DNA of 24,000 nt, taken from positions 362,875 through 386,874 of the forward strand of contig NZ_AP018929.1 of the NCBI RefSeq assembly GCF_008326425.1, in the 5' to 3' direction. The notes beneath the pieces were generated by a model that saw only the letters and a list, made by a program, of their open reading frames with translations, ran no database searches and was not told the DNA's origin. The stretch comes from Sulfuracidifex tepidarius (GTDB lineage: Archaea > Thermoproteota > Thermoprotei_A > Sulfolobales > Sulfolobaceae). The position numbers and the translations under genes are program-made. Shown here piece after piece: positions 6,629 to 23,172 of the stretch (its first letter is position 1; every line of letters begins with the position of its first letter).

Positions 6629-6979
6629 TCACGTATCTTTTCTGATCTCCTTCTCTAACTTCTCAAGGGTGTCTATCTCGTCCTCGTCTATCTCGTCTAC
6701 GTGTCTGGCTATCTTAGCTGCTAGGTACCTCATCTTCATCTTCTTATCGCTCTTAAGCTGGGCTACTGCTTCCTTGCCTGACTCGGTAATCGAGTAGACG
6801 TCGAACTCGTCCTTTACGACCATTCCCGTCTCGGTCAGACGCTGTAGAGACTGCCAGACAGTCTTGTTGTTCAGCCCGGTAGCTCTAGAGATATTGGCCG
6901 CCCTGTCCCTACCCTTTACGCTCAGATACTCCAAAACTTCTAACTCAGTTGATTTAGGATCCAAGTTATAGTTAGTCAT
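6629..6979 (-). CDS. Small winged-helix-turn-helix transcription regulator (MarR/ArsR-like fold) with an acidic coiled C-terminal tail
   Basis: ELEVLEYLSVKGRDRAANISRATGLNNKTVWQSLQRLTETGMVVK fits helix-turn-helix plus wing. A TATA box lies at 7013-7020. A GAGGT Shine-Dalgarno-like element lies just upstream of ATG 6979. Confidence 0.8.
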   Translation of the reverse strand: MTNYNLDPKSTELEVLEYLSVKGRDRAANISRATGLNNKTVWQSLQRLTETGMVVKDEFDVYSITESGKEAVAQLKSDKKMKMRYLAAKIARHVDEIDEDEIDTLEKLEKEIRKDT

Positions 6980-7468: not shown

Positions 7469-9409
7469 TCAAGGCATAAACAACCTGGCTATGGAAGGCT
7501 CCACATACGTGAAAGCGAGTATTCCCACCAACGCTAAGGTCAATCCTACTATGGATATAACAGTGTTAGCTATAGTTCCGCTTGACGCCTTTCCTAGGAT
7601 TAACCCCACAAAGAAGGAAGAGAGTTCAATGAAGACATACATCAGTTCCTTGAGCTCCTGAGAGATATGTACCCCTTGAAAAGTGTAAACCCCCGTGGTG
7701 GAGATGGTAGGGGAAACCCCAGTTAAATACCCTCCGAAGGAGCTCAGGAGCACAGTAGTTATCAACACGACGAACGTGAGAAGGATAGGTGTCATAACTC
7801 CCAGGAATTGGTACATCCTTATCCTGCTCAACGCCTCCCTCTTGTACTCAACGTACTTCCTCGTGAAGTCGTTAAGTTCCTCGAGTAACATGGTGGAGAC
7901 GTTCCCGCTTTCGGAGATCAATCCGAGCATGAAGAAGGTGAACTTGCCCATCCAGCTCGAGGACGATATTGATACCTCATTTAGAGGAATTCCTGACTTC
8001 ACCTGTGAGCTTGCTTTCCCTAAGATCTCCTTGAAGCGACCCGTGTAGGACTCAGACAATGATACCTTAACCAAGGACTTGTTCACGTTATATCCTATCT
8101 TCCTATACTCAGTTAGATCCCTCAAGAATTGGGGTAAGTTGTCCTCAACGTTCCTGACTTCACTGATCTTGTTCTTGACTTGCAAGTACATGGAGATCGA
8201 TGCAATGACTAGGGACACATAAACATCCACGAAGAGCGGTGCGTGTGAGATAACCCCCACTAGGAAAGACATCACTCCTAGCGCCAACGGTACGGTAGAG
8301 TTGAAGCTCAGATCGTCGAAGGTCTTAGGTCTCCACTCCCTGACCATAGCGTAAAGCGCGACCATAAAGAAAGGAGGCATCAAGATCAGGAGGTAGAGAA
8401 GGCTTATCCCGCCAAATATAGACAACACAAGGAACAGTGTAGGGAAGACCAGGAAGGAGATAATTATCGTCTCTCCAACGGATGAGATCCTGTCTGCATA
8501 AAAGGACCACCTGAAGTTTAGGACGTTCACGAACTCTTTAGCCTTGTCGTTCAGGTAGTCCTGTATGCCTCCCCCAGCCCTGAAAACTGAGGAGTATGCG
8601 TAAAGGAAGGATGCATACTCCTTTAAGGGGTGAACCCTGGCTCTGTAATCCACGAATTGAATCAACGACTTCCCGTGGTTCCTCATCTCCCTGATGAAAG
8701 CCTTAGACTCCCTACCGAAACCCCTAAACACACTCTTCTCATATATCCTCTTGTAAACGTAGGACAAGTTAAGTCCGGAGGAGGAAGCCACAGAGGAAAG
8801 GAAGACGAAGAACGGAAGCTCGTAACTCACGTCCTTGGACTCCTTCTTAGACTTTCCTCTGTAATATATTGCGGGATATTCGTACATCAGGAAAGGAACT
8901 ATCCAGATAGCCTGAACCAGGAGAAGCGAGAATAAGGGTAGCCTAGCTATGAGTAGGGAGAGGACCGACACCGCGTCAATTCCTCCGCAGAGCAGTGTAT
9001 AGGAAATAGATCTACCCACGAAATCAGAAACGAATGACAAGCTGTTGTCGTTCTCGGAGCTCAAGGTCATGTCCCTCTCTACCTTGGACATGTAAGACCT
9101 AACAAGGGAGTTGAACCTCTCCCTCCCAAATATCACCTTCCCCAAGACTTCTCCTTTCGTCCCGTGATACCTCTTTCCCTTTCTCCAAGGTTTAGTGAGG
9201 GCTGAACCCGCGAGGAGGACAGAACCAGCCACTAGAAATAGCTCGTAGTAAGGCAGGAAAAAGGGGAGCGATAACCTCATGTAAGGAAACAAGGCCATGA
9301 AGAGGGAAGCTACCAACAAGGCCATGGAAGCTACGAATAGTGGGGACCTACTCATGAGGTAAAAGCCGAACTCAATTTCCATGAAAGGATCTTCGCGTCT
9401 CTGTTTCAT
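7469..9409 (-). CDS. Type IV filament platform membrane protein (FlaJ/TadC/PilC-like, T2SSF-type)
   Basis: This is a polytopic membrane protein with two internally repeated cytoplasmic segments (ELPFFVFLSSVASSSGLNLSYVYKRI... and NLPQFLRDLTEYRKIGYNVNKSLVKV...), each followed by hydrophobic helices. Its start overlaps the ATPase stop in ATGA (9406-9409). An additional N-terminal hydrophobic region of about 150 aa is present. Confidence 0.85.
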   Translation of the reverse strand: MKQRREDPFMEIEFGFYLMSRSPLFVASMALLVASLFMALFPYMRLSLPFFLPYYELFLVAGSVLLAGSALTKPWRKGKRYHGTKGEVLGKVIFGRERFNSLVRSYMSKVERDMTLSSENDNSLSFVSDFVGRSISYTLLCGGIDAVSVLSLLIARLPLFSLLLVQAIWIVPFLMYEYPAIYYRGKSKKESKDVSYELPFFVFLSSVASSSGLNLSYVYKRIYEKSVFRGFGRESKAFIREMRNHGKSLIQFVDYRARVHPLKEYASFLYAYSSVFRAGGGIQDYLNDKAKEFVNVLNFRWSFYADRISSVGETIIISFLVFPTLFLVLSIFGGISLLYLLILMPPFFMVALYAMVREWRPKTFDDLSFNSTVPLALGVMSFLVGVISHAPLFVDVYVSLVIASISMYLQVKNKISEVRNVEDNLPQFLRDLTEYRKIGYNVNKSLVKVSLSESYTGRFKEILGKASSQVKSGIPLNEVSISSSSWMGKFTFFMLGLISESGNVSTMLLEELNDFTRKYVEYKREALSRIRMYQFLGVMTPILLTFVVLITTVLLSSFGGYLTGVSPTISTTGVYTFQGVHISQELKELMYVFIELSSFFVGLILGKASSGTIANTVISIVGLTLALVGILAFTYVEPSIARLFMP

Positions 9410-10965
9410 GCTTCCATCCTCCTCTCCATTGCTTCAGGGTAGAGATAGAACTCGCTTAACGTCGAGGAAATCTCATGGTAAGAACTCATGTTTCTCTTTA
9501 CCATGAAGGAGAGTAGCTCCCCTCTCCTCTTCACTTCCTTCCAGAGTATGTTCTCGTCCCACCCCATCAGGTTCATCGCGTCCTTGAGCTGTGGTGAAAG
9601 GCTTACCCCTCCGCTCTCGTAAGACATGATTTGTTCGAACCCTTCTCCCACGCTTTCCCAAATTCCGGTGACCTTCCTCACCTGCTTCTTGCTCAAGTAG
9701 TCAGTAGTGTTCTTGATGACGACCACGCTGGATAGCAGGTTCTTGAACTCCTTAGACACGGTGTCCGACAAGAGAGAGACTATCCTTGTCTTCACGTCCT
9801 CCACATTCCCTCCATGAAACGTGGTTAGCCCTCCATGTCCAGTTGATACTGCTTGTACCAGATACTCCATTTCGGATCCCCTGATCTCGCCCACGATAAT
9901 GTAGTCCGGCCTATACCTGAGCGACAGCTTCACCAGATCCGCCATATCGATTTCTTTCCCCGTGTCGAAATTGAGCGTCCTGGTGAATAGACGAACCCAT
10001 ACCTCGTTGGACAACTTCAATTCAGGCGTGTCCTCTATGGTCAGGAACTTAGCGTTAGGGTTAAGTAACATTAAGACGGAATTCAAGAGCGTCGTCTTAC
10101 CCGAACCAGTAGGTCCCACTATGAGCATGAACTTCCTTGCCTCAGCTATTATCCACATGTAGACGGCCTCAGGGATTGTGATCGTCCCGAACCTCAGTAG
10201 GTCAACTATTGTGAATGGTTCCTCAGGATGTTTCCTTATATCGAGCGTAGTTCCAGGGAGGGAGACTTCGTTTCCGTAAGTCACCGCGACCCTGTGTCCT
10301 TCCTTAAGTATGAAGTCCTGCATTGGGTTTGCGATGCTCACGTCTCTGCCTCCGAAGTCTGAAATCTTCTCCACGAACCTCATGAGGTCCCTCTCAGACG
10401 AGAAACGAACGTTAGTCTCAAGCCTGAAGAACTCGGTGAAGTCACGGTGAACTACTGTCACGGGCTTCTCAGATGAGGTGACCTCTATCTCCTCCACTAA
10501 CGGATCGAAGATCATCGGAGATATCCCGGAGTAACTCATCTCCCTCAGTACGAAGTAAGTTACCTTGGATACGTCAAGGGAATTGTCTACTAATTCCATC
10601 TCTTCTTCAACTTCCTTCACGTAGTCCATTATCTTCCTCTTCTGCGAGAAGAAAGTTCCCCTGTCTTCTTCAATAGTGGGCATTGAGGAATAAACGTAAT
10701 CTACTATTGTGCCTACCACCTTGACGTCATCGGGGCTCATTGATGGCTCTGAGATCAAGTAGTATCCCTTTCCTCCGCTGCTCACAACCGTTACGTTCAC
10801 CAAAGAAAGGATTGGATCAACGTCCTTAAGCGTGTACTCCTTTAACACCTTTCCCTTCACCTCGAGGAACTCAGACACCGTGGTTTCCGTCGGAACTACC
10901 TCCGTGGAAGACCCAAGGGACTTTCTGTTAGCAGAATTATTCTTAAAGAATATTTCTTTCATCAT
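9406..10965 (-). CDS. Type IV filament assembly ATPase (FlaI/GspE/VirB11 superfamily, T2SSE-type)
   Basis: Walker A GPTGSGKT is encoded at 10093-10116 (the reverse complement GGACCTACTGGTTCGGGTAAGACG was checked). Also present are the Asp box TIEDTPEL, Walker B PDYIIVGEIRG and His box TGHGGLTTFHG. A TATA box lies about 26 nt upstream of ATG 10965. Confidence 0.95.
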   Translation of the reverse strand: MMKEIFFKNNSANRKSLGSSTEVVPTETTVSEFLEVKGKVLKEYTLKDVDPILSLVNVTVVSSGGKGYYLISEPSMSPDDVKVVGTIVDYVYSSMPTIEEDRGTFFSQKRKIMDYVKEVEEEMELVDNSLDVSKVTYFVLREMSYSGISPMIFDPLVEEIEVTSSEKPVTVVHRDFTEFFRLETNVRFSSERDLMRFVEKISDFGGRDVSIANPMQDFILKEGHRVAVTYGNEVSLPGTTLDIRKHPEEPFTIVDLLRFGTITIPEAVYMWIIAEARKFMLIVGPTGSGKTTLLNSVLMLLNPNAKFLTIEDTPELKLSNEVWVRLFTRTLNFDTGKEIDMADLVKLSLRYRPDYIIVGEIRGSEMEYLVQAVSTGHGGLTTFHGGNVEDVKTRIVSLLSDTVSKEFKNLLSSVVVIKNTTDYLSKKQVRKVTGIWESVGEGFEQIMSYESGGVSLSPQLKDAMNLMGWDENILWKEVKRRGELLSFMVKRNMSSYHEISSTLSEFYLYPEAMERRMEA

Positions 10966-11466: not shown

Positions 11467-11940
11467 ATGAAAAACTTTAAGTCGTTAAAACTGAAAAGAG
11501 GAGAGTCGAACATTATAGGGAGCCTTTTTCTGATCCTTATAGTGGTTGTAGGTGCAATTCTTGTTGGTTATTACGTCTTCGGACTCATATCCAACAACCA
11601 GGCTAAGACCACCATGGAGATCTTGAACGAGAACTACGTCGGTGGCACTCTGTATTTGACATTGAAGAACGTAGGGAACGCGTTAGAGGACGTGAACAGT
11701 GTACAAGTATATCACGGAAATACAGTCATAGGGAGCTATTCGTCATCTGGAGTGACTGTAATGCAGCCCATCAATCCAAATCCCACAACCAGCTCAACTT
11801 CATCCTTACAGCCGGGTCAGGAAACAGTAGTTCAGATACCATTAAGCGGTGCTGAGCCTGGTCAATCTGTGACCGTCATCGTAACGGTAGGATCTGGACA
11901 GTCCGAAAACACGGTGTCTCAGGACTTCACTCTCAACTGA
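11467..11940 (+). CDS. Pilin-like protein with class III (prepilin-type) signal peptide
   Basis: MKNFKSLKLKRG/ESNIIGSLFLILIVVVGAILVGYYVFGLI has a basic leader, Gly at -1 and a hydrophobic helix of about 25 residues. This is followed by a beta-rich domain (LTLKNVGNA...) and a Ser/Thr/Pro patch NPNPTTSSTSSLQPG. Confidence 0.75.
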   Translation: MKNFKSLKLKRGESNIIGSLFLILIVVVGAILVGYYVFGLISNNQAKTTMEILNENYVGGTLYLTLKNVGNALEDVNSVQVYHGNTVIGSYSSSGVTVMQPINPNPTTSSTSSLQPGQETVVQIPLSGAEPGQSVTVIVTVGSGQSENTVSQDFTLN

Positions 11941-11943
11941 AAA

Positions 11944-11972
11944 TTTTCTTTTTATCTTTGTTTTTCTTTTTT
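11944..11972 (+). terminator. T-tract terminator region after pilin-like gene 1
   Basis: Four T4-T6 runs lie within 30 nt immediately after the stop codon (TTTTCTTTTTATCTTTGTTTTTCTTTTTT). This matches the archaeal oligo-T termination signal. Confidence 0.4.
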
Positions 11973-12735
11973 CAAAAAATCATTATCATTATTTATAATT
12001 ATCATCTTTATTTATGATTTTTACTTGTTTACGTGTTTATCCTTTGTACATTCTCTTATCTTTCCTCCTCTATTTTCGCTGAAAACTGACTGAACTTTCG
12101 TCTCTTCGCGTCGATGGTAGGGATCCTTGGTAAGTATCCAGTTTGAAACGGGTTCTCTGGGTTACGTCAGTGATGCTTTCAGGTAATAGATGAGACCGTG
12201 ACGGTTGAGGCGGGGCATGCGTGATACATTCCATTCCCAATAGCTATGATTGATGCGCCTCCTACCTCTCATCCAATCCTCGGATTCGGAAACGATCCGT
12301 AGTTTAGTCCTCTTCTGCAAGCGAAGCAAGAAGTCTATAAGGCAGGTAACCTATTGATGGACTCTCTGCTTGTCACATACAGCTTCAACTAGCGAGCGTT
12401 TTACTATCACGATGAAGCCGTTTGAAAGAGGAGTGAAATATACCACGCATGTTATCTTATCACCTTAGGGACTATTTCTCCTAGGGAAGAATTTGAGTAT
12501 CGTAGTAACTCTCACTATTCCAAATTTTATGATCTAAAACTCACATAGAGATAGTTCTCTTAGAGAAATTACGATCTATTTTCCACAAGGCTCTCATCGT
12601 CCATGGTTAACACACGGTTTCGTATTTCAACGCTTATTATGAATTAAGAGATACCATCTATAAGAAGAATTATTCTTGAAGGAAAATTCTTTCATTATAA
12701 CTTTTAACTTCTCTCTTACTATTTAGAATGAGAAA

Positions 12736-13215
12736 ATGAATGCGAGAAAATCAAGAAAAGGAGTATCTGAGGTTGTGGGGGCAGTCCTTCTGATACTGAT
12801 AACTCTAATCGCAATGGTTTATTTGGTGGAGACTTACCTTAGGCAGTCGGGCTTCGCAGACCAAGGGTTCGCTGAAGAAGCCCATTACCAGGAACTTAAG
12901 GCCGGGCAAATGGTCGATACAGTTTACTATGCTAACCATAAAGTTACGCAGGGCTACTTGGATTGTTTCATAATAGTGAACGTTGGAGATAACATAGTCT
13001 TGTCTAAACACGGTGTGTTGAGCCAAGACTCGGGCACGCCTTGTCCTTACTATGTGGAAGTGTCGAACTCTTCGGGGAACACGCTCCTTGGAAGCAACAG
13101 CTCGATAACCCTGACCCATGGGATGACCTATAAGATCATGGTATTAAGCAAGACCGAGCTTTCCTCCATATACTTAAACGCGTCCGGAGAGAATATCATC
13201 GAGGTGAGCTCATGA
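12736..13215 (+). CDS. Pilin-like protein with class III signal peptide
   Basis: MNARKSRKG/VSEVVGAVLLILITLIAMVYLV is a textbook archaeal prepilin N-terminus. The domain is beta-rich with two Cys and NSS/NAS sequons. Its stop overlaps the next gene's start (ATGA 13212-13215). Confidence 0.8.
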   Translation: MNARKSRKGVSEVVGAVLLILITLIAMVYLVETYLRQSGFADQGFAEEAHYQELKAGQMVDTVYYANHKVTQGYLDCFIIVNVGDNIVLSKHGVLSQDSGTPCPYYVEVSNSSGNTLLGSNSSITLTHGMTYKIMVLSKTELSSIYLNASGENIIEVSS

Positions 13216-13625
13216 GGAAAGGATTAGCGTCCCTATTCGTGGTCATGGCAGTCATGGTGATTGTAATTGCGTTTCTCGGTTTCCTGGGATACGTGTTCTT
13301 GATCAACTCTCAGGTGGATCAGGAGTATCAGAACTATAGGGCTGTTCAACAAGTGAGGGAGCAACAAGAACTGTTCGTGAATGAGGTCTTGAACGGAGAT
13401 GGGCAAGTAGCTTACCTGAACGTCACGAACGACGGGAACGTCCAAGTGAAGATAGTGAACGTGATACACGTGGTTAACGTAAGTGGTTATTACAGCGTAA
13501 TTTTACAATACGAAAACGTGAGTATACCCCCCGGAGGAAACGCCATGATATCCGTTAAGTCCTATCCGCATGAAACGACGCAACTGATAGTGGTGACCAG
13601 CTTGGGTAGGACTTTCACGGCGTAA
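13212..13625 (+). CDS. Pilin-like protein with a very short class III signal peptide
   Basis: MRKG/LASLFVVMAVMVIVIAFLGFLGYVFL, followed by YLNVTNDGNVQVKIVNV, a beta-sandwich-type motif common in archaeal pilin/FlaF/FlaG-like proteins. It is translationally coupled to the upstream pilin gene. Confidence 0.75.
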   Translation: MRKGLASLFVVMAVMVIVIAFLGFLGYVFLINSQVDQEYQNYRAVQQVREQQELFVNEVLNGDGQVAYLNVTNDGNVQVKIVNVIHVVNVSGYYSVILQYENVSIPPGGNAMISVKSYPHETTQLIVVTSLGRTFTA

Positions 13626-13644: not shown

Positions 13645-13900
13645 TATTCCATTATAAAATCTTTTCCCTCTCTCTTTGCTTCCCTACTTCATCCCTTTTT
13701 CACTCTCCCAAACATAACCACTGCTCCTCATCTCTCATCATACCTTTTGTATCTATGTAGATGTCAGATAACAATCTATCTTCTGTCATCATGTGACCTG
13801 CATCGACGTGTTGTCTCGGGGTCTTTAGAAGTTCTAAACCCTTATCTCTCAATCCGTTGGCTATACGATATTACAGTGAGTAGTTTATACTTATAGATAG

Positions 13901-16900
13901 ATGAAGTTTTTTAACTCTCAGTATCTATTACTTCATAGAATGAATGAATTATTAGGTTTAATAGCCTTAACGATGGTAATCATAGTGTCTGTAGGAGTGG
14001 TGTCATACTTCTTCATACTTTACGATCAGAGCCAGGAAGAATACATGAACCAGATCAAGGAGACAGCCCTATCCTCTCCCTTGAGGGCCGACAGTTGGTC
14101 TAACGGAACTATAGCCTACTTCGTGAATAACGGAACTGAGAAGACAGTCACTGGGCTCGTATACGTCCTAGGAGGAAAATTCTTCACGTTGTCTTTCTCC
14201 GACATGAAGGTACCAACTTTCCTCCAGGGATACATGAAGTACTTGCCATCTTGCTACTCCAGAGTGGACTTCAACGGGTTCGTCCTAGGTACTACTGGAA
14301 CTCAGGTGAACAACGGAATAACCTTGGATACAGGGCAGAGGTTAGCTGTACCATATCCCGGGGGTTTCGTCGGGTTAGTCACTACTGGATCTGCAGAGTG
14401 GTACCCTTATTACCCAACTCAAGGGTTTTACAACATGGCTAACCAAGACTCTAACGTCAGTGAGGCTCTCCTGAAACAAGTGTATGGAGAGAACAGTGTC
14501 GCGTCGAACCTCCTCTCACAGGACGAGGCGAACCTCACGATAGAGGTGAGTGGTGGAGGAGAAGTAGGAGTTGTAGCCTCCAACGGCCAATGGCAGGAGT
14601 TCACCCAAGGGGACTGGACCATGACATTACCGAAGTACGTGAACGTGACCCTCATCGCGATCACGGGGTATGATACTACCATGGACGGGTTTAAGGTGAG
14701 CGGTTCCTTCCAGGGGATTTCCTCCTCCTATCTCTTTGAGGAGATAAACCTGACGGGGGACGCGGTGGTTCAAGCCCAGTTCTCCTATTACAGCTCCTCG
14801 GAGTTCATGAATTCCTCCTCCACTTGTCCTATGAAAGTATATGTGAACTTCAATGATGCCGGTTATCCCTTCCCAGGGGGTTACGCTGTGGCGAGCGGCG
14901 ACGGACAGTCAGTGGTCTTTGACAACACCCAGTATTTCGTTATAAACTACACTCAGTCCCTGAACGTGACTTTCCATAACTTCCCCTTCTCAGGATACGT
15001 GGACAACAAGCAGACACTGTCGTCAGGGGACCAGGAGGTTAACCCTAAGTTCCCCTTCCTGGCTTATGAGCTGAGCTTCGTGAACATTCAGACCGGACAG
15101 TCAATATATGCTCTCTCCTTGTTGAACACGACCTTCTTCGGGGTAGGAGTCCAGTGTTATTTCCTGATTTACGGTAACTATTACCCTGGATCCCTCCCCG
15201 AACACGTTACCTTGACCTATCCTGGATACAGACTTTCCTCCTCAAACAGCTCCAGTTTGCTCTTCCTGGGAATACCTAGCCAGATAGGGGAGAACGGAAG
15301 TGCGTGTTGCCCCGCTCAATGCCAGACCTACAGTTACCCCGTCCTAAATGAGACCGCCTCTATGAACGGAGTCTTCGTCGCACCAGGGTTCTCCGTAAAC
15401 GAGAGCGTGATAAACGTCACAGTAGGAGAACATAACCTCACCACAGACACCGAGGAAGGTTTCCAGGACCTCAAGATTTACATGAGACCAATCGTGGACG
15501 TATTCATCATACCCAACGGGTCTGGTCTCCTCATAGCCAACTTCACCAACGCGGTGACAGGGGACCCTCAGTATCAAATCATCAACCCCCTCTCATTTTA
15601 TGAGGCAACCGTACCTTGGGGATCGACTGTGAACGTTTCAGCTGACTCCTTCGTTAACGGAGTCACCTTCCAGGGGTGGAGGATGAACGAGAGCGGGAGC
15701 TTGGTGCTGTCTAACCTCATGGAGAGACCTTACTCCGGGTTGATCTCCGTTAACGTATGCCTCACGACCGGGGACTGGGTCGTGATCTGCGGTTCCTTCT
15801 CAAGATATGATGTAGTGAACGTGTCGGTGGTCAACGGTGTGGGAGGAATCCTCCAGGGAGTGAGCCCTCCCTCAGACCAGGTAGTATATCTGTCCCAGAA
15901 CATCCCGGTGTCGGTGAACTCCATCATGTGTGTTGAAGCATTCCCATACTCTTCCTATCTGTTCTCCAACTGGTCGGGGAACGTGAGTTACGTTACCTTC
16001 CACAACTACACCCTGCTGGAACCTAACGGGAAGGAGGGGAGTTACCTCAGTGGCACTAACGTGCTCTTCAATCCTACCATGGACGTCCTCGTTACTAAGC
16101 CATTCTCTCTGACCTCAAACTACGCTCCCGTCCCTAAGGACTCCTACCTTTCGCTGGGATTCGACATCAACGGGTCTGTCCAGGGGAACTACACGGTTTT
16201 CCAGGACGGGAACTACACCACTTACAACATGTCTAACTACAACCTCATACGGCTACACGTGGGTGCGGGACACTACCCCCTCAACGTCTACGACGTGAAC
16301 TTCTCGTTCGTGGTCTACAACTGGCAGGGAGGAAACCAGTTAGGCGTGTCCCTATCAAGTGAGAACTCGAGCTACGTTCCGATCCCGCACACACATTTCC
16401 TTCACTTGTTACATAACTCTTCCACGATATCGAACACGGAGTACTCCTTCCCCGGGAACGTGATAAACGCTACGGTCAGGGCTAACGTCGCTGTGACACC
16501 CGTTGTTATATGGGTTAACGGAAAGCCTCACCTTTACGGCATATATCAGACCACCATGGAGGGACTGACGTTCTACAACAAGCCCACACCTTGGTACGAC
16601 TGGTTGCTCTACGCTGTAGGGTTGACCATAGGGATCGTGGTGCTGATAGCCTCAGCAGGGGGACCGAGCGAGATCATAGAGGGAGTTGAGACAACCATAT
16701 CCCAAGCCATAGACGAGGGAGTTTCCCTGACCACAGTCAAGTTCTTCTTCAGGGGTTTGCTCAAGGTTGCAGGACTCGACTTTTTCGACCTAACAGAGGG
16801 ACCATCAAACACGTTGCTCAGGATAAAGACCGTCCTCCTTGTCGCCTACGACGCTGACACTTATATTGCTCTCATATTGAGCAAGGAAGGTATAACCAAC

Positions 16901-17473
16901 AACGCAAACATAAAGACCTTCGTCATGGCTTGGTACGGGTTTGGGACTGAGGCCACTTACCCGTCTTTCTCCCGGAATGACTCCAACAGTGTGGCAACTT
17001 ACTCAAGCGTCCCTTCAAGTGACGTGTCCATAGTGAACCTGAACTACGCCGGCAGTCTGGAAACACCTCCAACTCAGAACGAGGAGCTCCTGTCGCTTTA
17101 CGAGTCTGACTCGTCCTCCTCCAATTACCTCTACAAGGGGACCATGTATCAGGTAACCAACCCGGTGAACTACGTGAACTATGGAAACACCTCACTGACT
17201 GACTTCTCAGGTACCTTCAATGGGGTCTACCTGACTTGGGACCAGTTGAGCTACTTGGAGATCGTTAAGTCCTCAGGGGGCTCACTAGCTGGAGGGCTAG
17301 TATCGTCCTTTTTGGGAGGTTTCGGTCTGTTGACCGGAGTGGGGACACTCCTCTCCCTGATACAAGGGAGCACAAGGTACGCGTTCTTCACGTACTACAG
17401 CGAGCCCTTCTTAAACCAGGGGAACGAGGCGATCCAACCAAGCTCGTGGTCCTATAATGTAGATCTCTATTGA
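13901..17473 (+). CDS. Giant (1190 aa) sequon-rich surface protein with a pilin-like N-terminal helix, a central TM segment and a Gly-rich C-terminal hydrophobic segment
   Basis: It is a single uninterrupted 3.57-kb ORF. The N-terminus ...HRMNELLGLIALTMVIIVSVGVVSYFF aligns in register with the pilin-2 mature end VSEVVGAVLLILITLIA. I hand-counted about 34 N-x-S/T sequons. Hydrophobic segments are WLLYAVGLTIGIVVLIASAGG (about 16590-16660) and GGLVSSFLGGFGLLTGVGTLLSLI (about 17275-17365). An alternative start is ATG 13940. Confidence 0.85.
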   Translation: MKFFNSQYLLLHRMNELLGLIALTMVIIVSVGVVSYFFILYDQSQEEYMNQIKETALSSPLRADSWSNGTIAYFVNNGTEKTVTGLVYVLGGKFFTLSFSDMKVPTFLQGYMKYLPSCYSRVDFNGFVLGTTGTQVNNGITLDTGQRLAVPYPGGFVGLVTTGSAEWYPYYPTQGFYNMANQDSNVSEALLKQVYGENSVASNLLSQDEANLTIEVSGGGEVGVVASNGQWQEFTQGDWTMTLPKYVNVTLIAITGYDTTMDGFKVSGSFQGISSSYLFEEINLTGDAVVQAQFSYYSSSEFMNSSSTCPMKVYVNFNDAGYPFPGGYAVASGDGQSVVFDNTQYFVINYTQSLNVTFHNFPFSGYVDNKQTLSSGDQEVNPKFPFLAYELSFVNIQTGQSIYALSLLNTTFFGVGVQCYFLIYGNYYPGSLPEHVTLTYPGYRLSSSNSSSLLFLGIPSQIGENGSACCPAQCQTYSYPVLNETASMNGVFVAPGFSVNESVINVTVGEHNLTTDTEEGFQDLKIYMRPIVDVFIIPNGSGLLIANFTNAVTGDPQYQIINPLSFYEATVPWGSTVNVSADSFVNGVTFQGWRMNESGSLVLSNLMERPYSGLISVNVCLTTGDWVVICGSFSRYDVVNVSVVNGVGGILQGVSPPSDQVVYLSQNIPVSVNSIMCVEAFPYSSYLFSNWSGNVSYVTFHNYTLLEPNGKEGSYLSGTNVLFNPTMDVLVTKPFSLTSNYAPVPKDSYLSLGFDINGSVQGNYTVFQDGNYTTYNMSNYNLIRLHVGAGHYPLNVYDVNFSFVVYNWQGGNQLGVSLSSENSSYVPIPHTHFLHLLHNSSTISNTEYSFPGNVINATVRANVAVTPVVIWVNGKPHLYGIYQTTMEGLTFYNKPTPWYDWLLYAVGLTIGIVVLIASAGGPSEIIEGVETTISQAIDEGVSLTTVKFFFRGLLKVAGLDFFDLTEGPSNTLLRIKTVLLVAYDADTYIALILSKEGITNNANIKTFVMAWYGFGTEATYPSFSRNDSNSVATYSSVPSSDVSIVNLNYAGSLETPPTQNEELLSLYESDSSSSNYLYKGTMYQVTNPVNYVNYGNTSLTDFSGTFNGVYLTWDQLSYLEIVKSSGGSLAGGLVSSFLGGFGLLTGVGTLLSLIQGSTRYAFFTYYSEPFLNQGNEAIQPSSWSYNVDLY

Positions 17474-18100: not shown

Positions 18101-18673
18101 ATGAAAAAAGAAATTAGCGAGGAAAAGGATGCGATCAAAGTAAAATGGGTCACTCCGAGAGGAGTGTTAGCCCTTGTTATCCCCATTACAGGGCTCATTA
18201 CAGCGTATGTGCTGAACGATATCATTTTACTTGATTATGTCCACGTGATGTCCGGTCTGCTTTGGACGGGCATCGATATCTTTATGGGGTTTGTTTTATC
18301 TTACACGTTGAAGTCTCTTGATCCGAAGGCGAAAGCCGACGTAGCGAGGAGTTTAACTCCCACCATGCTCTTCCTCATGCCGAGCATAGCAACGGTAGCC
18401 GTTACTAGCGGGTACATTTTAGCAAGTGAAATGGGAATTTTTAGCTTAAGCTCTCCGTTGATAATATCTGCCGTAATAATAATAGCTATATTGATGATAC
18501 AAGGTTTCGGGATATTCTTGCCAAATGAGGTCAGAGTAGTGCTTGAATTGAACAAAGATGAACCTAGCTACGGAAAAATTGGAAAGTTAATGATGATAAA
18601 CTTCAAGCTATCTGGAGTACAAGGGATACTTCAGTTATTGTTAATTTTCGTCATGGCCCACCTAGCTATTTAA
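18101..18673 (+). CDS. Hypothetical integral membrane protein (about 4 TM helices)
   Basis: The hydrophobic segments are VLALVIPITGLITAYVL, VMSGLLWTGIDIFMGFVLSY, MLFLMPSIATVAVTSGYILA, LIISAVIIIAILMIQGFGIF and a C-terminal LLLIFVMAHLAI. The promoter geometry is good. The gene is visibly more AT-rich than its neighbours. I recognise no family. Confidence 0.7.
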   Translation: MKKEISEEKDAIKVKWVTPRGVLALVIPITGLITAYVLNDIILLDYVHVMSGLLWTGIDIFMGFVLSYTLKSLDPKAKADVARSLTPTMLFLMPSIATVAVTSGYILASEMGIFSLSSPLIISAVIIIAILMIQGFGIFLPNEVRVVLELNKDEPSYGKIGKLMMINFKLSGVQGILQLLLIFVMAHLAI

Positions 18674-19029
18674 GAACTCAGTGTCTTTCTTTTCAGGATC
18701 ATGCAAGGCACTTATTTTTCTTTTATGCGAGTCCGTGGCTCATGATAAGTTCTAATCAAGCGCCTAGCTAAAGGGAGTCACGTAAGCTCTAGATTTGAAG
18801 AGATCCAAAGAGGGAGTCTGAACTTGTTTAAGGTATGGTAAGTGTATTCCACGTGGTGCTGATAATTGAAATGTTCCGAAAAGAACTTGATGACAAGAAG
18901 GTCTGCTAGTCTAAAGACGCAAAAAGCGTTCGTATCTATCTGCACTACTTAGAGTTACAAAGTGGAAAAGGAAAGATTTCTATCTAAGAGATTACATGAT
19001 GCGATCTGAATTATCTATCCTTCTAGTTT

Positions 19030-19043
19030 ATCTATTGATAGAT
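19030..19043. promoter_or_regulatory. Inverted repeat ATCTAT-TG-ATAGAT (candidate operator) upstream of a small ORF
   Basis: The 6-bp arms are exact reverse complements. It overlaps a TAGATTCT 8-mer (19039-19046) that also occurs at 7001-7008 and 11391-11398 in promoter regions. Confidence 0.3.
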
Positions 19044-19094
19044 TCTTTCTTAATTTAGATAGACTTATTAACTAGTAACGCATATTAGATTATC

Positions 19095-19241
19095 ATGGTA
19101 AAACTATTCGAAAAGAAGGAAAGAGAAATGTACTTATGTGAATATGCTCTCCAATACCTTAGGGACGAGTTTCCTTTGGAGTACGACAAAGCGATAGAGC
19201 TCAGAAACAGGAGGAATCCTTATTTATCTTGGCGATATTAA
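19095..19241 (+). CDS. Candidate 48-aa small protein (below the ORF-track cutoff)
   Basis: Hand translation gives MVKLFEKKEREMYLCEYALQYLRDEFPLEYDKAIELRNRRNPYLSWRY. A TATA-like CTTATTAA (19064-19071) is centred about 26 nt upstream of the ATG. There is no other support. Confidence 0.3.
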   Translation: MVKLFEKKEREMYLCEYALQYLRDEFPLEYDKAIELRNRRNPYLSWRY

Positions 19242-19981
19242 AAAGGCATTAAAGCAGCACTGAGGATCAACCTAAGTTCTTATTCATGGAAGTGATAAAG
19301 GTCGATCAGAGCAACCGTTTTTAATGAAGATTGGACTAATAGACTCGCCATAGTCTTGCAGAAATCTGCGTGAAAGCGTTGAGGTGTCGTGTTCTGATTA
19401 AGAGATTTAAATGGACACGAACTGACAAGGTAATTCCTCGACTTATTCACAAGGAACTTCCCTAGAAGACAGATGATTTTTATCTATCTCCAAAGATCAG
19501 GACTACTATAACGTTATCGTGAATAAGAGATCGCTCAGTTTTTCAGTGTGTCATGCGCCTTAATCCAAGTCTAGTGTACACCGAGTTATGAGATTTTCAC
19601 GATGAGGAGGAGATACCCGTCTGTAATGTGATAGGAAATTACGTTATTCAAAACTACTTTTACAGCGTCGATGGTGACGTTTCGATCCTTTCAGACCAGA
19701 ATTCATGGACTAAGATCTCTTATTGCTTATCACATATCTCTACATGAGTTACTGTGAAAGCCTGATCTAGATCAATTCCTTTTAATGGTCTTTCACACGC
19801 GTGCTGAGTCCACGTTGAACGGATGATCCAAGATACCCTATGGGAACGCCAAAAACGCATTATCGCCTTCCCTTCCTTGAATCTTTTCCTATTCAAGACC
19901 ACACTGTTTAAGTTCCAAAAATAAGTCTTCATGGTGAGACATGAAGTCAGTTGCAGAGACTGAAAGCATCCTCCCCGTGGT

Positions 19982-22013: not shown

Positions 22014-22880
22014 TTAAAAAGATTTTATTTTATTCATCTCCTTGGCTATCCTCACAGCCTTCAGGGCACTGGCTTCCTTATCCTTTATCTCCAGCATGAC
22101 GTCTACGTCTTTCACAACTTTCAGGAAATCCCTGAAGTCCGTTTCAGACAAAGTGGAGGCGTGGACGCCTCTCCTCTCCCCTGGCTCCTGGGAGCTGTAG
22201 TCCATCATAGGCGTACCCCTCCAAGTTCCCCTCACTAAGTCCAGCGCTTCTTCCAAGCTCTCCCCGTCGTTGTTCAGGGAATGGTGTAGGTTGTCCAGCA
22301 CTATCGGTATCCCAGTTCCCCTCCATACCTCTAAGCAGTCCCTCACTGTGTACACCCTGTCGTCGTTCTCCACCACCAGTCTGTTCCTCAAGTTCTCAGG
22401 CAACAGGGAGAAGTTCTCAACGAACCTCCTGACCCCTTCCTCCTTCCCTCCCTTGGAACTACCCACGTGTATCTGTATCTTTCCTTCAACGCCCATCAAG
22501 TCCAACAAGTCGGCGTGGTACTTCAGTTCCTCTATAGAGCTCCTCACCACTTCACCCCTCTCAGAGTTCAGGACGGTGTACTGCCCTGGATGCATTGAGA
22601 TCCTGATGGACTTCTCCCTTATCACTTCCCCGACCTCCTCCAAGAGTCCCCTCATTTCCTTCCTCCAGTCAAAGGTCATCTTGGGATGGGACGCGAACGG
22701 TATCGTGTTGGAGCTTATCCTGAAGAAGAGAATGTCGTGTTCCACGTTCCACTCCAAGGTCCTCTTCAGACACTCCAGGTTACTGTTAGCTACACCCTTC
22801 ACTCTCTCCAGATGATCGAGTTTCACCGTAGAGTCTGCCTTGCACAGGGAGCGGTTTGTGGACACGTAGCCTATCTTCAC
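22014..22880 (-). CDS. uvdE: UV damage endonuclease (UvdE/UvsE family)
   Basis: TIM-barrel UVDE motifs are present: KIGYVSTN, FFRISSNTIPFASHP, ISMHPGQYTVLNS, IQIHVGS, LVVENDDRVYTV, IVLDNLHHS and MLEIKDKE. The ORF track extends to ATG 22949. However, family N-termini begin at the (K/R)xGYV motif, and a TATA box (22902-22909) sits about 26 nt upstream of GTG 22880. Confidence 0.9.
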   Translation of the reverse strand: MKIGYVSTNRSLCKADSTVKLDHLERVKGVANSNLECLKRTLEWNVEHDILFFRISSNTIPFASHPKMTFDWRKEMRGLLEEVGEVIREKSIRISMHPGQYTVLNSERGEVVRSSIEELKYHADLLDLMGVEGKIQIHVGSSKGGKEEGVRRFVENFSLLPENLRNRLVVENDDRVYTVRDCLEVWRGTGIPIVLDNLHHSLNNDGESLEEALDLVRGTWRGTPMMDYSSQEPGERRGVHASTLSETDFRDFLKVVKDVDVMLEIKDKEASALKAVRIAKEMNKIKSF

Positions 22881-22901
22881 AGCGAGAAGGAGGAGGGTAA
22901 G

Positions 22902-22909
22902 AAAATAAA
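22902..22909 (-). promoter_or_regulatory. TATA box for uvdE
   Basis: Minus-strand TTTATTTT is centred about 26 nt upstream of GTG 22880. Confidence 0.45.
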
Positions 22910-23172
22910 GGTGAGTTCCAAAAGGTGGAAAGGCGAGCACGTGACGCAAGTTGCCTTACGAACGTCAGAAGAGTTTGAAAAGGTGAATTCATCCCTAATT
23001 CGTCCTTCAAGAATAGGTGAACTCGTAAATATTGATTTCTGTCTTAAAGTTCTTCTCATCGAATGAATACTGTTCTAAACCTGACATAAGTGACTAAAAA
23101 GACTGTAATACTTTTGCAAAACTATTCGTTATTTTCAATTACTTTTAAATACCGTTTTTCGGTCAAGTAACG

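What the first reader, a model, noticed from the sequence alone, without database searches (positions are those of the whole stretch)
13901..17473. Giant sequon-dense protein whose N-terminus mimics an already-processed pilin
Seen directly: residues 14-40 (MNELLGLIALTMVIIVSVGVVSYFFIL) align in register with the predicted mature N-terminus of pilin 2.
- Giant protein counted from Met14: M1 N2 E3 L4 L5 G6.
- Pilin 2 after cleavage: V1 S2 E3 V4 V5 G6.
- Pilin 1 after cleavage: E1 S2 N3 I4 I5 G6.

If translation starts at ATG 13901, the 13-residue leader MKFFNSQYLLLHR would put Arg at -1. That is not the Gly/Ala/Ser expected for prepilin peptidase. If translation starts at ATG 13940, the protein is born with a mature-pilin-like end and needs no processing.

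Promoter geometry is ambiguous. TTTATAC at 13884-13890 predicts a TSS near 13914, downstream of the first ATG. A weaker GATATTA at 13866-13873 would fit the first ATG.

The body carries about 34 N-x-S/T sequons by hand count. All but two lie between the N-terminal helix and a central hydrophobic segment (about aa 896-920). That implies an extracellular, heavily N-glycosylated domain of about 850 aa. It is followed by a sequon-poor region of about 200 aa, a Gly-rich hydrophobic segment (about aa 1125-1155) and a short tail. A Cys cluster (GSACCPAQCQ) is also present.

A protein combining a pilin-like N-terminus with two further membrane segments is not an ordinary pilin, S-layer protein or substrate-binding protein.
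Basis: partly seen in the sequence, partly recalled or inferred. Interest (0 to 1): 0.8.

Follow-up and report, generated by a model that had tools for sequence, protein, structure and literature searches.

The report
Giant leaderless pilin-like membrane glycoprotein
A 1,177-residue surface protein of the acid-loving archaeon Sulfuracidifex tepidarius starts directly with the end that type IV pilins normally gain only after cleavage, and its relatives sit beside pilus-assembly genes, so it is probably an uncleaved pilin-derived part of a bindosome-like machine.

Summary
ORF 13901-17473 is real, but the protein starts at ATG 13940 (1,177 aa). Three results support this:
- The 85%-identical UBA167 orthologue has a stop codon six codons upstream of that Met.
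- Five of seven family loci have no upstream in-frame start.
- All seven carry a TATA-like box 23-35 nt upstream, the geometry of a leaderless mRNA.

Every relative begins M-x-[D/E/N]-hydrophobic-hydrophobic-G. In three independent profile-profile alignments, Met1 falls on the +1 residue of the neighbouring BasA-, BasB- and BasC-like pilins.

The 34 sequons exceed chance (16.7±3.5 expected), and 32 lie in the roughly 850-aa domain between two strong hydrophobic helices.

The window is a bindosome-like (Bas-like) type IV pilus locus. All full-length relatives examined, in six other loci, lie within 10 kb of BasA/BasB-like pilin genes. An assembly ATPase and platform pair is also seen wherever the contig reaches far enough. 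No curated family or solved structure matches the protein.

Best reading: it is a pilin-derived accessory subunit that needs no prepilin peptidase and stays tethered to the membrane. This is conceptually like the archaellum proteins ArlF/ArlG. It is a new variant of a known kind, and its function is inferred, not shown.

The parts
13940..17473 (+). Coding sequence of the giant protein (1177 aa plus stop); the true start is ATG 13940
   Evidence: NCBI annotates 1177 aa. The orthologue has a stop 6 codons upstream. tblastn matches of seven of the eight family N-termini start exactly at 13940 and none extends upstream. dN/dS is 0.105 against the UBA167 orthologue over 385 codons.
13901..13939 (+). 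Upstream in-frame ATG plus 12 codons (MKFFNSQYLLLHR); rejected as coding, it overlaps the promoter
   Evidence: The ATG is absent from UBA167, where the aligned sequence carries no ATG. Five of seven family loci have no upstream start. It lies upstream of or inside the TATA region.
13907..13914 (+). TATA-like box TTTTTTAA, -33 to -26 from ATG 13940; predicts a leaderless or near-leaderless mRNA
   Evidence: It aligns with TTTATAA of UBA167. Comparable A/T boxes lie at -23 to -35 in all seven family loci. The same geometry is seen for pilin 2, the ATPase gene and the 190-aa gene of this window.
13920..13939 (+). 20 nt between the TATA box and the ATG that are identical in UBA167, although the sequence further upstream diverges
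   Evidence: Function unknown; it could be an initiator or operator element.
13940..14071 (+). Pilin-type N-terminal alpha-helix (aa 1-44); hydrophobic core aa 4-27 (13949-14020); motif M-N-E-L-L-G
   Evidence: hhalign places it in register with the mature BasA-, BasB- and BasC-like pilins, with controls. AlphaFold2 predicts a helix at aa 2-44. KD hydropathy is 2.65. G6 is invariant and position 3 is D or E in 6 of 7 distinct family N-termini.
14108..14389 (+). First beta-rich domain after the helix (aa 57-150); the most conserved block, SNGTIAYF.N.G ... AVPYPGGFVG
   Evidence: This is the only region with moderate AlphaFold2 confidence (block means 57-83). Family conservation is shown. There is a weak in-register match to the first strands of BasB-like pilins. 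The module also occurs as a separate 196-aa protein, P0008.
14021..16591 (+). Predicted extracellular, N-glycosylated ectodomain (aa 28-884) carrying 32 sequons; beta-rich with conserved blocks YMRPI..., NVSA.SF..ITF.GW and FSNWSGN
   Evidence: Sequon density is 3.7 per 100 aa and K+R is 3.1%. There is a weak InlB B-repeat hit, E 0.0099, below the cut-off. AlphaFold2 confidence is low.
15296..15325 (+). Cys cluster GSACCPAQCQ; a lineage-specific insertion
   Evidence: The homologues have a gap here.
16592..16663 (+). Second transmembrane helix (WYDWLLYAVGLTIGIVVLIASAGG)
   Evidence: KD 2.25. Conserved in P0003, P0005, P0009 and L008. Absent in P0007 and P0006.
16664..17284 (+). Sequon-poor region of about 200 aa between TM2 and the Gly-rich segment; cytoplasmic location inferred from topology
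   Evidence: It has 2 sequons. Post-TM2 regions carry 0.3-0.9 sequons per 100 aa in 4 of 4 members with TM2. AlphaFold2 predicts helices here at low confidence. No family hit.
17285..17362 (+). Gly-rich hydrophobic segment (possible third TM), followed by a 36-aa tail
   Evidence: KD is only 1.6-1.7. A stronger counterpart exists in the Acidianus-type homologue, KD 2.0.
12736..13215 (+). Pilin 2, BasA-like; class III signal MNARKSRKG|VSEVVG
   Evidence: NCBIfam BasA 6e-9; TIGR02537 scores 25 bits, above its cut-off of 20. Pfam Pilin_N 4e-4.
13212..13625 (+). Pilin 3, BasB-like; MRKG|LASLF; overlaps pilin 2 by 4 nt; closest pilin class to the giant's N-terminal module
   Evidence: NCBIfam BasB 5e-8. 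hhalign against the giant N-terminus gives 90.5% probability, E 1.4e-6, over 90 columns.
11467..11940 (+). Pilin 1, BasC-like; MKNFKSLKLKRG|ESNIIG
   Evidence: NCBIfam BasC 2.8e-7; TIGR02537 22.7 bits.
9406..10965 (-). Assembly ATPase, BasE-like
   Evidence: Pfam T2SSE 1.2e-35. NCBIfam BasE 1.5e-127, at 426 bits against a cut-off of 1000.
7469..9409 (-). Platform membrane protein, BasF-like
   Evidence: Pfam T2SSF 1.5e-13. NCBIfam BasF 1e-96 and UpsF 2e-76, both below their cut-offs.

Best explanation
The gene encodes a pilin-derived accessory subunit of a bindosome-like (Bas-like) type IV pilus machine of Sulfolobales.

- **Synthesis:** it is translated from a leaderless mRNA starting at ATG 13940. 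It is therefore made without the short basic leader and Gly/Ala cleavage site of class III signal peptides. Its first residues (M-N-E-L-L-G followed by about 20 hydrophobic residues) already correspond to the end of a pilin cut by prepilin peptidase.
- **Topology:** the helix inserts with the N-terminus in the cytoplasm. It exposes a beta-rich ectodomain of about 850 aa, probably heavily N-glycosylated, in the quasi-periplasm and S-layer zone.
- **Tethering:** in this protein and most relatives, a second transmembrane helix and a C-terminal domain keep the protein in the membrane.
- **Proposed role:** the pilin-type helix docks onto the BasA/B/C-like pseudopilus or its platform without processing. 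The protein then acts as a fixed anchor, scaffold or adhesin rather than a polymerising subunit. This parallels the archaellum proteins ArlF/ArlG (FlaF/FlaG), which are filament-subunit derivatives lacking the class III signal.

**Shown:**
- the start site
- the family-wide leaderless N-terminus
- the register with the local pilins
- the linkage to pilus loci
- the sequon and charge asymmetry
- purifying selection

**Inferred:**
- glycosylation
- topology of the C-terminal part
- docking
- the static role
For: **Start and leaderless trait**
- establish the 13940 start and the absence of a leader across the family.

**Pilin register**
- hhalign against BasB-like pilins gives 90.5% probability (E 1.4e-6, 90 columns). 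BasA-like gives 70.6% and BasC-like 29.7%.
- All three place Met1 on the pilin +1 residue.
- Reversed and column-shuffled controls stay at or below 4.4%.
- BasA-like against BasB-like pilins score 89%, so the giant is about as pilin-like as the pilin classes are to each other.

**Locus identity and linkage**
- The locus is Bas-like: BasE, BasF, BasA, BasB and BasC are the best NCBIfam hits.
- The window, UBA167 (L001), three paralogues in Sulfolobales archaeon HS-7 (L002, L003, L005), a metagenome locus (L004/L010) and an Acidianus-type locus (L008) all have BasA/BasB-like pilin genes within 10 kb. All but L008 and L002 also show a T2SSE ATPase, with a T2SSF platform beside it except in L003, where the contig view ends inside the ATPase gene.

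**Extracellular ectodomain**
- 34 sequons against 16.7±3.5 expected, 3.7 per 100 aa, K+R 3.1%.
- The same ectodomain/post-TM2 asymmetry is seen in 4 of 4 members with TM2.

**Real gene**
- dN/dS is 0.105.

**Shape**
- AlphaFold2 with a 7-sequence alignment predicts a helix at aa 2-44 followed by a beta domain at aa 57-150, with block-mean pLDDT 57-83.

**Precedents**
- The Bas system shapes the envelope rather than making a conventional filament (PMC3047682).
Against: - Curated pilin models do not detect the protein. There is no TIGR02537 hit, and Pilin_N reaches only E 0.07 in one family member.
- Without the hydrophobic helix, the similarity to BasB-like pilins falls to 8.8% probability, score 22.6 against 13.8 for the reversed template.
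- The structure model is poor overall (mean pLDDT 37), and Foldseek found nothing significant in the PDB.
- TM2 is missing in P0007 and P0006, so membrane tethering is not universal.
- The C-terminal regions are barely or not homologous across the family.
- K+R in the supposed cytoplasmic region is low (4-8%) compared with cytoplasmic proteins of the window (10-14%).
- A 196-aa stand-alone copy of the N-terminal module lies in loci without pilus genes.
- There are no expression, glycosylation or interaction data.
Confidence: 0.5

Rival explanations
1. It is a true fibre subunit: a leaderless modular pilin polymerised by the ATPase and platform. It would act either as the first (tip) subunit displaying a giant adhesin, or as the last (basal) subunit whose bulk and extra membrane helices stop extrusion and anchor a short pseudopilus.
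For: - Residues 1-6 are conserved in register with mature BasA-like pilins, including an acidic residue at +3 (6 of 7 distinct family N-termini) and an invariant G6.
- P0007 and P0006 lack TM2 and could in principle leave the membrane.
- The N-terminal module exists as a pilin-sized 196-aa protein.
- The ectodomain looks like tandem beta domains, with weak adhesin-type Foldseek hits and an InlB B-repeat-like motif.
Against: - A strong second transmembrane helix plus a C-terminal domain is present in the window protein, P0003, P0005, P0009 and L008. This is hard to reconcile with extraction into a fibre.
- The known leaderless filament-subunit derivatives, ArlF/ArlG, are not filament subunits.
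- The Bas system is not known to make an extended filament.
- A role for the acidic +3 residue in archaeal pilus assembly is not established (my own knowledge).
Confidence: 0.3
2. It is an unrelated large membrane-anchored surface glycoprotein, such as an adhesin or envelope protein. Its N-terminal helix would be an ordinary signal anchor, and both its resemblance to pilins and its position next to pilin genes would be incidental.
For: - The similarity is dominated by a hydrophobic helix.
- No curated pilin model hits.
- The gene has its own promoter and is not translationally coupled to the pilin genes; the gap is 314 nt here (from the pilin 3 stop to ATG 13940) and 725 nt in UBA167.
- In HS-7 two paralogues lie 5-8 kb from the pilin genes.
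- The short homologue has no pilus neighbours.
Against: - Sec-type signal anchors normally carry a basic N-terminal region. Here the helix starts at residue 4, and 4 of 7 distinct family N-termini have no basic residue before it.
- The register and motif are conserved across proteins only 23-26% identical.
- Linkage to BasA/BasB-like pilin genes is seen at every locus with a full-length homologue, across five genome or metagenome sources.
- Reversed and shuffled controls score well below the real alignments.
Confidence: 0.15
3. Translation starts at ATG 13901, and the 13-residue extension MKFFNSQYLLLHR is a leader removed by a peptidase.
For: The ATG is in frame with no stop before 13940. P0003 was also annotated with an upstream extension ending in R.
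Against: - The UBA167 orthologue has a stop 6 codons upstream, and five of seven loci have no upstream start.
- Both extensions overlap the TATA region.
- Arg at -1 does not fit the Gly/Ala rule of class III signals.
- NCBI annotates the 1177-aa form.
Confidence: 0.03

Closest known systems
ArlF/ArlG (FlaF/FlaG) of the archaellum
   Same: They derive from the filament subunit but lack the class III signal peptide. They are anchored by an N-terminal pilin-type helix with a beta-sandwich domain in the quasi-periplasm, and are encoded with the ATPase and platform genes. They act as a static S-layer-binding anchor rather than a filament subunit (PMC4425475; PMC8667602 title).
   Different: - ArlF/G are about 150-170 aa and span the membrane once. 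This protein is 1177 aa, with an 850-aa ectodomain and one or two further membrane helices.
- There is no sequence membership: no Pfam or NCBIfam archaellin hit.
- It belongs to a Bas-like system, not an archaellum.
- S-layer binding is untested.
Bindosome assembly system (BasE/F/A/B/C) of Saccharolobus solfataricus
   Same: The surrounding genes give their best NCBIfam hits to BasE, BasF, BasA, BasB and BasC. There are three small class III pilin-like proteins. The Bas system is thought to build a pseudopilus-like envelope structure (PMC3047682).
   Different: - All scores are far below the curated cut-offs, for example 426 against 1000 bits for BasE, so this is a distinct relative.
- The described Bas system has no giant leaderless component. 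Makarova et al. list only two membrane proteins and a secreted protein of about 500 aa (PMC4858521).
- An exhaustive phmmer search of 1.84 billion cluster representatives found only seven hits. The ones whose source could be traced come from Sulfuracidifex, Sulfolobales archaeon HS-7 and Acidianus, and the rest from metagenomes.
Modular type IV pilins (pilin module fused to a large functional domain, e.g. Streptococcus sanguinis PilB/PilC; my own knowledge)
   Same: An N-terminal pilin-type helix and small head are followed by a large extra module that could mediate adhesion.
   Different: Modular pilins carry a normal class III leader and are cleaved, and they have no further membrane helices. 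Here the leader is absent and TM2 and possibly TM3 are present.
Tip-associated large proteins of bacterial type IV filaments (PilY1, GspK; my own knowledge)
   Same: A large accessory protein encoded beside minor pilins. A priming or capping role is conceivable.
   Different: PilY1 has a Sec signal and a beta-propeller domain, and GspK is a cleaved pseudopilin. No such domains were detected here.
UpsX of the Ups pilus operon
   Same: A large membrane protein of unclear function encoded with a clade 4I ATPase, platform and pilins in Sulfolobales. It is described as built of several Ig folds (bioRxiv 10.64898/2026.04.22.720090; PMC11868833).
   Different: No UpsX sequence was available to compare. 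The NCBIfam scan gave no hit other than a weak Cas8a2 match. The relationship is untested.

Membership tests
[quoted passage not shown] | Short basic leader before the hydrophobic stretch | tested here: not met
   The protein starts M-N-E-L-L-G. Upstream stop codons exclude a leader in 5 of 7 family loci. The 13901 extension is rejected.
[quoted passage not shown] | Gly/Ala (or Ser) at -1 preceded by Lys/Arg, cleaved by PibD | tested here: not met
   No such site exists in residues 1-6 of any member. The hypothetical 13901 form would have Arg at -1. Actual cleavage cannot be tested here.
Archaeal type IV pilin (N-terminal domain) | Hydrophobic N-terminal helix of about 20 residues homologous to pilin alpha-1 | tested here: met
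   hhalign against the local BasB-, BasA- and BasC-like families gives 90.5%, 70.6% and 29.7%, all in register with +1. AlphaFold2 predicts a helix at aa 2-44.
Archaeal type IV pilin (N-terminal domain) | Recognition by the curated models (Pfam PF07790 Pilin_N, TIGR02537) | tested here: not met
   No hit for the window protein. One family member reaches E 0.07 for Pilin_N. Pilins 1 and 2 pass TIGR02537.
Archaeal type IV pilin (N-terminal domain) | Beta-rich head domain homologous to pilin heads | tested here: inconclusive
   Without the helix the match to BasB-like pilins is only 8.8% probability over 31 columns, in the same register. The pilin classes score 0.7-7.4% against each other. The AlphaFold2 beta domain at aa 57-150 has moderate confidence.
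ArlF/ArlG-type stator proteins | Filament-subunit-like N-terminus without a class III signal, encoded in a type IV filament locus | tested here: met
ArlF/ArlG-type stator proteins | Sequence membership in the archaellin/FlaF/FlaG families | tested here: not met
   No Pfam or NCBIfam hit.
ArlF/ArlG-type stator proteins | Binds the S-layer and is required for assembly or function | not testable with these tools
   Needs biochemistry or genetics.
Bindosome assembly system (Bas) | BasE/BasF/BasA/BasB/BasC equivalogs above the NCBIfam cut-offs | tested here: not met
   These are the best hits but far below the cut-offs: 426/1000, 325/1300, 36/230, 33/230 and 30/260 bits. The locus is Bas-like, not Bas.
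Bindosome assembly system (Bas) | Required for surface function of class III sugar-binding proteins | not testable with these tools
   Needs genetics or uptake assays (PMC3047682).
PilY1-type tip adhesin | C-terminal PilY1/PilC beta-propeller domain | tested here: not met
   No such Pfam hit in any of 7 members.
UpsX | Sequence or structure homology to UpsX (arCOG05986) | not tested
   No UpsX sequence or model was available. The NCBIfam scan at E ≤ 10 returned nothing relevant.

The most novel reading that the evidence does not exclude
This would be the first natural type IV pilin-like subunit that is born mature. It is made without a leader, so it could enter or cap a type IV filament independently of prepilin peptidase. 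Its giant glycosylated ectodomain and extra membrane helices would make it the element that fixes a short Bas-like pseudopilus between membrane and S-layer. That would give a concrete structural handle on the long-unresolved bindosome-type envelope structures of Sulfolobales.
Probability: 0.3. Interest if true: 0.8.

Novelty: new variant of a known kind. Interest (0 to 1): 0.6.

Why it matters
- **Leader removal:** removal of the leader by prepilin peptidase is regarded as the universal licensing step for type IV filament subunits. A conserved family that dispenses with the leader yet keeps the mature-pilin N-terminus in register shows another way evolution has reused the pilin helix. So far this was documented only for the small archaellum proteins ArlF/ArlG.
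- **Envelope architecture:** the family marks a distinct, unannotated subgroup of Bas-like machines in thermoacidophiles. The architecture of bindosome-type envelope structures has been unclear since 2007, and this protein is a candidate link between the machine, the membrane and the S-layer.
- **Testability:** direct tests are N-terminal mass spectrometry, a PibD assay, deletion, and cryo-ET.

Tried and rejected
**Searches that found little or nothing**
- Word-indexed homologue searches returned only the protein itself or fragments. This held for the full protein, the full-length family alignment and the N-terminal alignment. The long low-complexity query appeared to saturate the candidate list.
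- The exhaustive phmmer run was the productive search.
- Sequence searches of the PDB found nothing meaningful. I queried the family profile, the N-terminal profile and the P0003 C-terminal domain. The best hits were a phiKZ protein at E 0.03 and a short enterotoxin motif at E 0.03.
- Pfam and NCBIfam gave nothing on the whole family or on the isolated C-terminal regions.
- Plasmid and phage collections gave no match.
- Rfam and tRNA scans of the window found nothing.
- tblastn of all locus pilins against the window found no hidden pilin remnants in the ORF-free gaps.

**Structure**
- The AlphaFold2 single-sequence model failed (pLDDT 30).
- With a 7-sequence alignment the model reached pLDDT 37, with only aa 57-150 moderately confident.
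- Foldseek against the PDB gave no hit at E ≤ 0.001.

**Ideas considered and dropped**
- *The 13901 start with a 13-residue leader:* rejected.
- *TTTATAC at 13884 as the promoter:* set aside in favour of the positionally conserved TTTTTTAA.
- *The Cys cluster as a functional motif:* rejected because it is an insertion unique to this lineage.
- *The post-TM2 domain as a conserved cytoplasmic module:* not supported. Only P0003, P0005 and weakly P0009 share it.

Full report
**Where the window comes from**

The window is from Sulfuracidifex tepidarius. The giant ORF is 100% identical to a 1177-aa 'hypothetical protein' of that species.

It carries a compact archaeal type IV pilus-like locus:
- On the minus strand are a T2SSE ATPase (9406-10965) and a T2SSF platform protein (7469-9409).
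- On the plus strand are three small proteins with class III signal peptides: 11467-11940, 12736-13215 and 13212-13625. The giant ORF follows them.
- In NCBIfam their best hits are the five bindosome assembly proteins of Saccharolobus solfataricus: BasE 1.5e-127, BasF 1e-96, BasA 6e-9, BasB 5e-8 and BasC 2.8e-7.
- All lie far below the curated cut-offs. The system is Bas-like but not the described Bas system.

**Checking the observation**

- I count exactly 34 N-x-S/T sequons. Two thousand shuffles of the protein gave 16.7±3.5 and never more than 30.
- 32 of them lie between the first and second hydrophobic segments.
- Sequon density there is 3.7 per 100 aa. The ATPase, platform, 571-aa protein, MscS-like channel and UvdE of the window have 0.3-0.8 per 100, the MFS transporter none, and the small HTH protein 1.7. 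K+R is 3.1% against 10-14%. This fits an extracellular, glycosylated domain in an acidophile, but that location is an inference.
- In 1190-aa numbering, the hydrophobic segments are at aa 9-44 (KD 2.65), 897-929 (KD 2.25) and 1126-1156 (KD 1.6-1.7, borderline).
- The Cys cluster exists (15296-15325) but is an insertion unique to this lineage.

**Where translation starts**

Four independent lines point to ATG 13940.
1. NCBI annotates 1177 aa.
2. The orthologue in Sulfolobus sp. UBA167 (L001) is 85% identical, with dN/dS 0.105 over 385 codons. It has an in-frame TAG six codons upstream of the equivalent Met and no start codon in between.
3. Six more distant relatives were found by an exhaustive phmmer scan of 1.84 billion cluster representatives. 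Five of the seven loci analysed have a stop codon with no intervening start immediately upstream of the same Met or Val. tblastn matches of seven of the eight family N-termini start exactly at nt 13940, and none extends upstream.
4. All seven loci carry an A/T-rich TATA-like box whose position (-23 to -35) predicts a transcript starting at or next to the start codon.
   - The same geometry is seen for pilin 2, the ATPase gene and the 190-aa gene of this window.
   - Internal operon genes (pilin 3, platform) instead have GGAGG-like sequences.
   - In the window the relevant box is TTTTTTAA at 13907-13914. It aligns with TTTATAA of UBA167 and is followed by 20 nt identical in both species.
- ATG 13901 lies upstream of this box.

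**The N-terminus**

All relatives begin in the same way:
- MNELLG: window and UBA167
- MDDVIG: P0003; its annotated upstream GTG start includes the TATA box
- MKEIIG: P0005
- MNDVLG: P0007
- MREALG: P0006
- MRNVLG: P0009 and L008
- MNDVIG: P0008

G6 is invariant and position 3 is D or E in six of the seven distinct N-termini. The neighbouring BasA-like pilins read, after the predicted cut, V-S-E-V-V-G, V-S-E-L-V-G, V-S-E-I-I-G and similar.

I built small family alignments from these loci and compared profiles:

| Giant N-terminus (110 aa, 8 sequences) against | Probability | Register |
|---|---|---|
| BasB-like pilins | 90.5% (E 1.4e-6, 90 columns) | giant L4 = pilin 3 L8 |
| BasA-like pilins | 70.6% | giant N2 = pilin 2 S11 |
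| BasC-like pilins | 29.7% | giant E3 = pilin 1 N15 |

- All three place giant Met1 on the pilin +1 residue.
- Reversed templates gave 0.5-4.4% (scores 14-21 against 27-41). Column shuffles gave below 1%.
- For scale, BasA-like against BasB-like pilins score 89%.

The signal is dominated by the helix. With the helix removed, the giant against BasB-like pilins gives only 8.8% (score 22.6 against 13.8 for the reversed template). That alignment is in the same register, on the motif x-A-Y-x-x-N-x-G of the first strands. The pilin classes themselves then score only 0.7-7.4% against each other. Curated pilin models do not recognise the giant. AlphaFold2 with the 7-sequence alignment predicts a 43-residue N-terminal helix followed by a beta domain (aa 57-150, block-mean pLDDT 57-83), which is the pilin 'lollipop' outline. 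The rest of the model is unreliable (mean pLDDT 37).

An ordinary Sec signal anchor is unlikely. The hydrophobic stretch begins at residue 4, and four of the seven distinct N-termini have no basic residue before it.

**Genomic linkage**

Every full-length relative I could place lies near type IV pilus genes.

| Locus | Arrangement |
|---|---|
| UBA167 (L001) | ATPase, platform, then BasA-like, BasB-like and giant in the same order as the window, plus a second divergent BasA/BasB pair |
| HS-7 paralogue P0007 (L005) | Directly downstream of the ATPase and platform genes, with a pilin trio 8 kb away |
| HS-7 paralogue P0005 (L003) | 8 kb from an ATPase and a BasA/B/C-like trio |
| HS-7 paralogue P0003 (L002) | 5 kb from another trio |
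| Metagenome locus (L004/L010) | ATPase, platform, two pilins, a thermopsin-family protein, then the giant, all on one strand |
| Acidianus-type locus (L008) | BasA/BasB-like pair 1.6 kb upstream, divergent |

The exception is a 196-aa protein (P0008/P0010). It corresponds to the N-terminal module alone and sits near a transposase with no pilus genes within 10 kb. This shows the module can exist on its own at pilin size, and it slightly weakens the linkage argument.

No relatives were found in plasmids or phages.

**Architecture beyond the N-terminus**

- The family aligns at 23-26% identity across the ectodomain. Conserved blocks include AVPYPGGFVG, YMRPI, NPG...VP.G...NVSA.SF..ITF.GW, PAN..L...G.PY....FSNWSGN and VTANFV..PP.
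- The FSNWSGN block gives a sub-threshold InlB B-repeat hit. Foldseek's best, non-significant hits are Ig-like adhesin stalks. Tandem small beta domains are therefore plausible but not established.
- A strong second transmembrane helix (W-D-W-L..F..G...) is present in the window protein, P0003, P0005, P0009 and L008. It is absent in P0007 and P0006.
- Where TM2 is present, the region after it is sequon-poor: 0.3-0.9 per 100 aa against 2.1-3.7 in the ectodomain.
- The C-terminal regions are poorly related. P0003 against P0005 gives 1e-8, and the others share only the helix. They hit no known family.
- The conserved core is therefore the leaderless pilin-type module plus the ectodomain. The extra membrane tether is common but optional.

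**How it most likely works**

*Shown:*
- The protein is made without a leader.
- Its N-terminus matches mature local pilins in register.
- It is under purifying selection.
- It travels with Bas-like pilus genes.

*Inferred:*
- The helix inserts with the N-terminus in the cytoplasm and the ectodomain is glycosylated outside.
- TM2 returns the chain to the cytoplasm.
- The pilin-type helix lets the protein dock onto the BasA/B/C-like pseudopilus or the platform without PibD processing.

Most members cannot leave the membrane. The closest precedent, FlaF/ArlF, lacks the class III signal, stays in the membrane and binds the S-layer (PMC4425475). I therefore favour a static anchor, scaffold or adhesin role (confidence about 0.5). 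This agrees with evidence that the Bas system shapes the envelope rather than building a classical filament (PMC3047682).

The main rival (about 0.3) is that it is a genuine fibre subunit, at the tip or as a basal terminator. The conserved acidic +3 residue, the TM2-less paralogues and the stand-alone module fit this. An unrelated glycoprotein with a chance resemblance (about 0.15) and the 13901 start (about 0.03) are less likely.

**Comparison with known systems and novelty**

- The protein works like ArlF/ArlG in concept, but it is not a member of that family by sequence.
- It is seven times larger than ArlF/ArlG, spans the membrane several times and belongs to a different machine.
- It resembles modular pilins in layout but lacks their leader.
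- It is not a PilY1-type protein.
- Its relation to UpsX, another large membrane protein of clade 4I loci, could not be tested.
- Surveys of archaeal type IV filament loci describe no such component in Sulfolobales. PMC4858521 was read for that section, and bioRxiv 2026.04.22.720090 was checked by term search only. All database entries are 'hypothetical protein'.

I rate it a new variant of a known kind, with interest 0.6. The feature is real, conserved and easily testable. It would interest pilus specialists, but it has a conceptual precedent, a narrow distribution and no functional data.

Noticed in passing
window 4798-6513 (-) and 6629-6979 (-): A 571-aa protein with no Pfam or NCBIfam hit sits next to a 116-aa winged-helix regulator (HTH_45/ArnR-like). 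The same pair (565 aa plus 116 aa) lies beside the giant paralogue P0005 in Sulfolobales archaeon HS-7 (L003 16280-18364). It may be a dedicated regulatory pair for these loci.
   Followed up: partly
window 13920-13939: The 20 nt between the TATA-like box and the ATG of the giant gene are identical in UBA167, although the sequence further upstream is diverged and carries an indel. This may be an initiator or operator element.
   Followed up: partly
L002, L003, L005 (Sulfolobales archaeon HS-7, AP024596.1): One genome carries three paralogous giants (1436/1455, 1300 and 1415 aa). Two of them (P0005, P0007) lie beside their own ATPase gene and BasA/B-like pilin set. P0003 lies about 24 kb from P0007 and has its own pilin trio but no ATPase within its 10-kb view. 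The machine and its giant partner seem to have expanded together.
   Followed up: partly
L014 10001-10591 (also L011-L013, L015): A 196-aa stand-alone copy of the leaderless N-terminal module (P0008/P0010) lies next to a DDE transposase fragment, with no pilus genes within 10 kb. The downstream ORFs (67 and 517 aa) are unrelated to the giant.
   Followed up: yes
cluster of P0001: In one S. tepidarius draft assembly the protein is annotated as two pieces (WP_054846498 at 508 aa and WP_054846497 at 563 aa). This suggests a frameshift, an assembly error or strain-level inactivation.
   Followed up: no
L004 5533-8130 (same as L010 7132-9729): An 865-aa thermopsin-family protein with a C-terminal membrane anchor lies between the pilin genes and the giant homologue P0006. 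Another thermopsin gene lies 6 kb downstream of P0003 (L002 20330-21472). The link could be chance or a processing protease.
   Followed up: no
window 11941-12735 and 18674-19981: These are two ORF-poor stretches, the second being AT-rich (about 39% GC). The first (about 0.8 kb) lies between pilin 1 and pilin 2, and the second (about 1.3 kb) follows the 190-aa membrane protein gene. They show no Rfam family, no tRNA and no pilin remnant by tblastn.
   Followed up: partly
window 18101-18673 (+); L001 876-1448 (-): A 190-aa polytopic membrane protein (weak DUF2269 match) flanks the pilus locus in both S. tepidarius and UBA167, but at different relative positions. This indicates local rearrangement.
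   Followed up: no
window 22014-22949 (-): A UvdE UV-damage endonuclease gene (Pfam 3.7e-63) lies 4.5 kb from the locus. It is noted only because the related Ups pili are UV-induced. No link was tested.
   Followed up: no
P0006 aa 433-476 (L004): This metagenomic homologue has a very hydrophobic insertion (KD 2.85) in the middle of the ectodomain and lacks TM2, so its topology must differ from the window protein.
   Followed up: no
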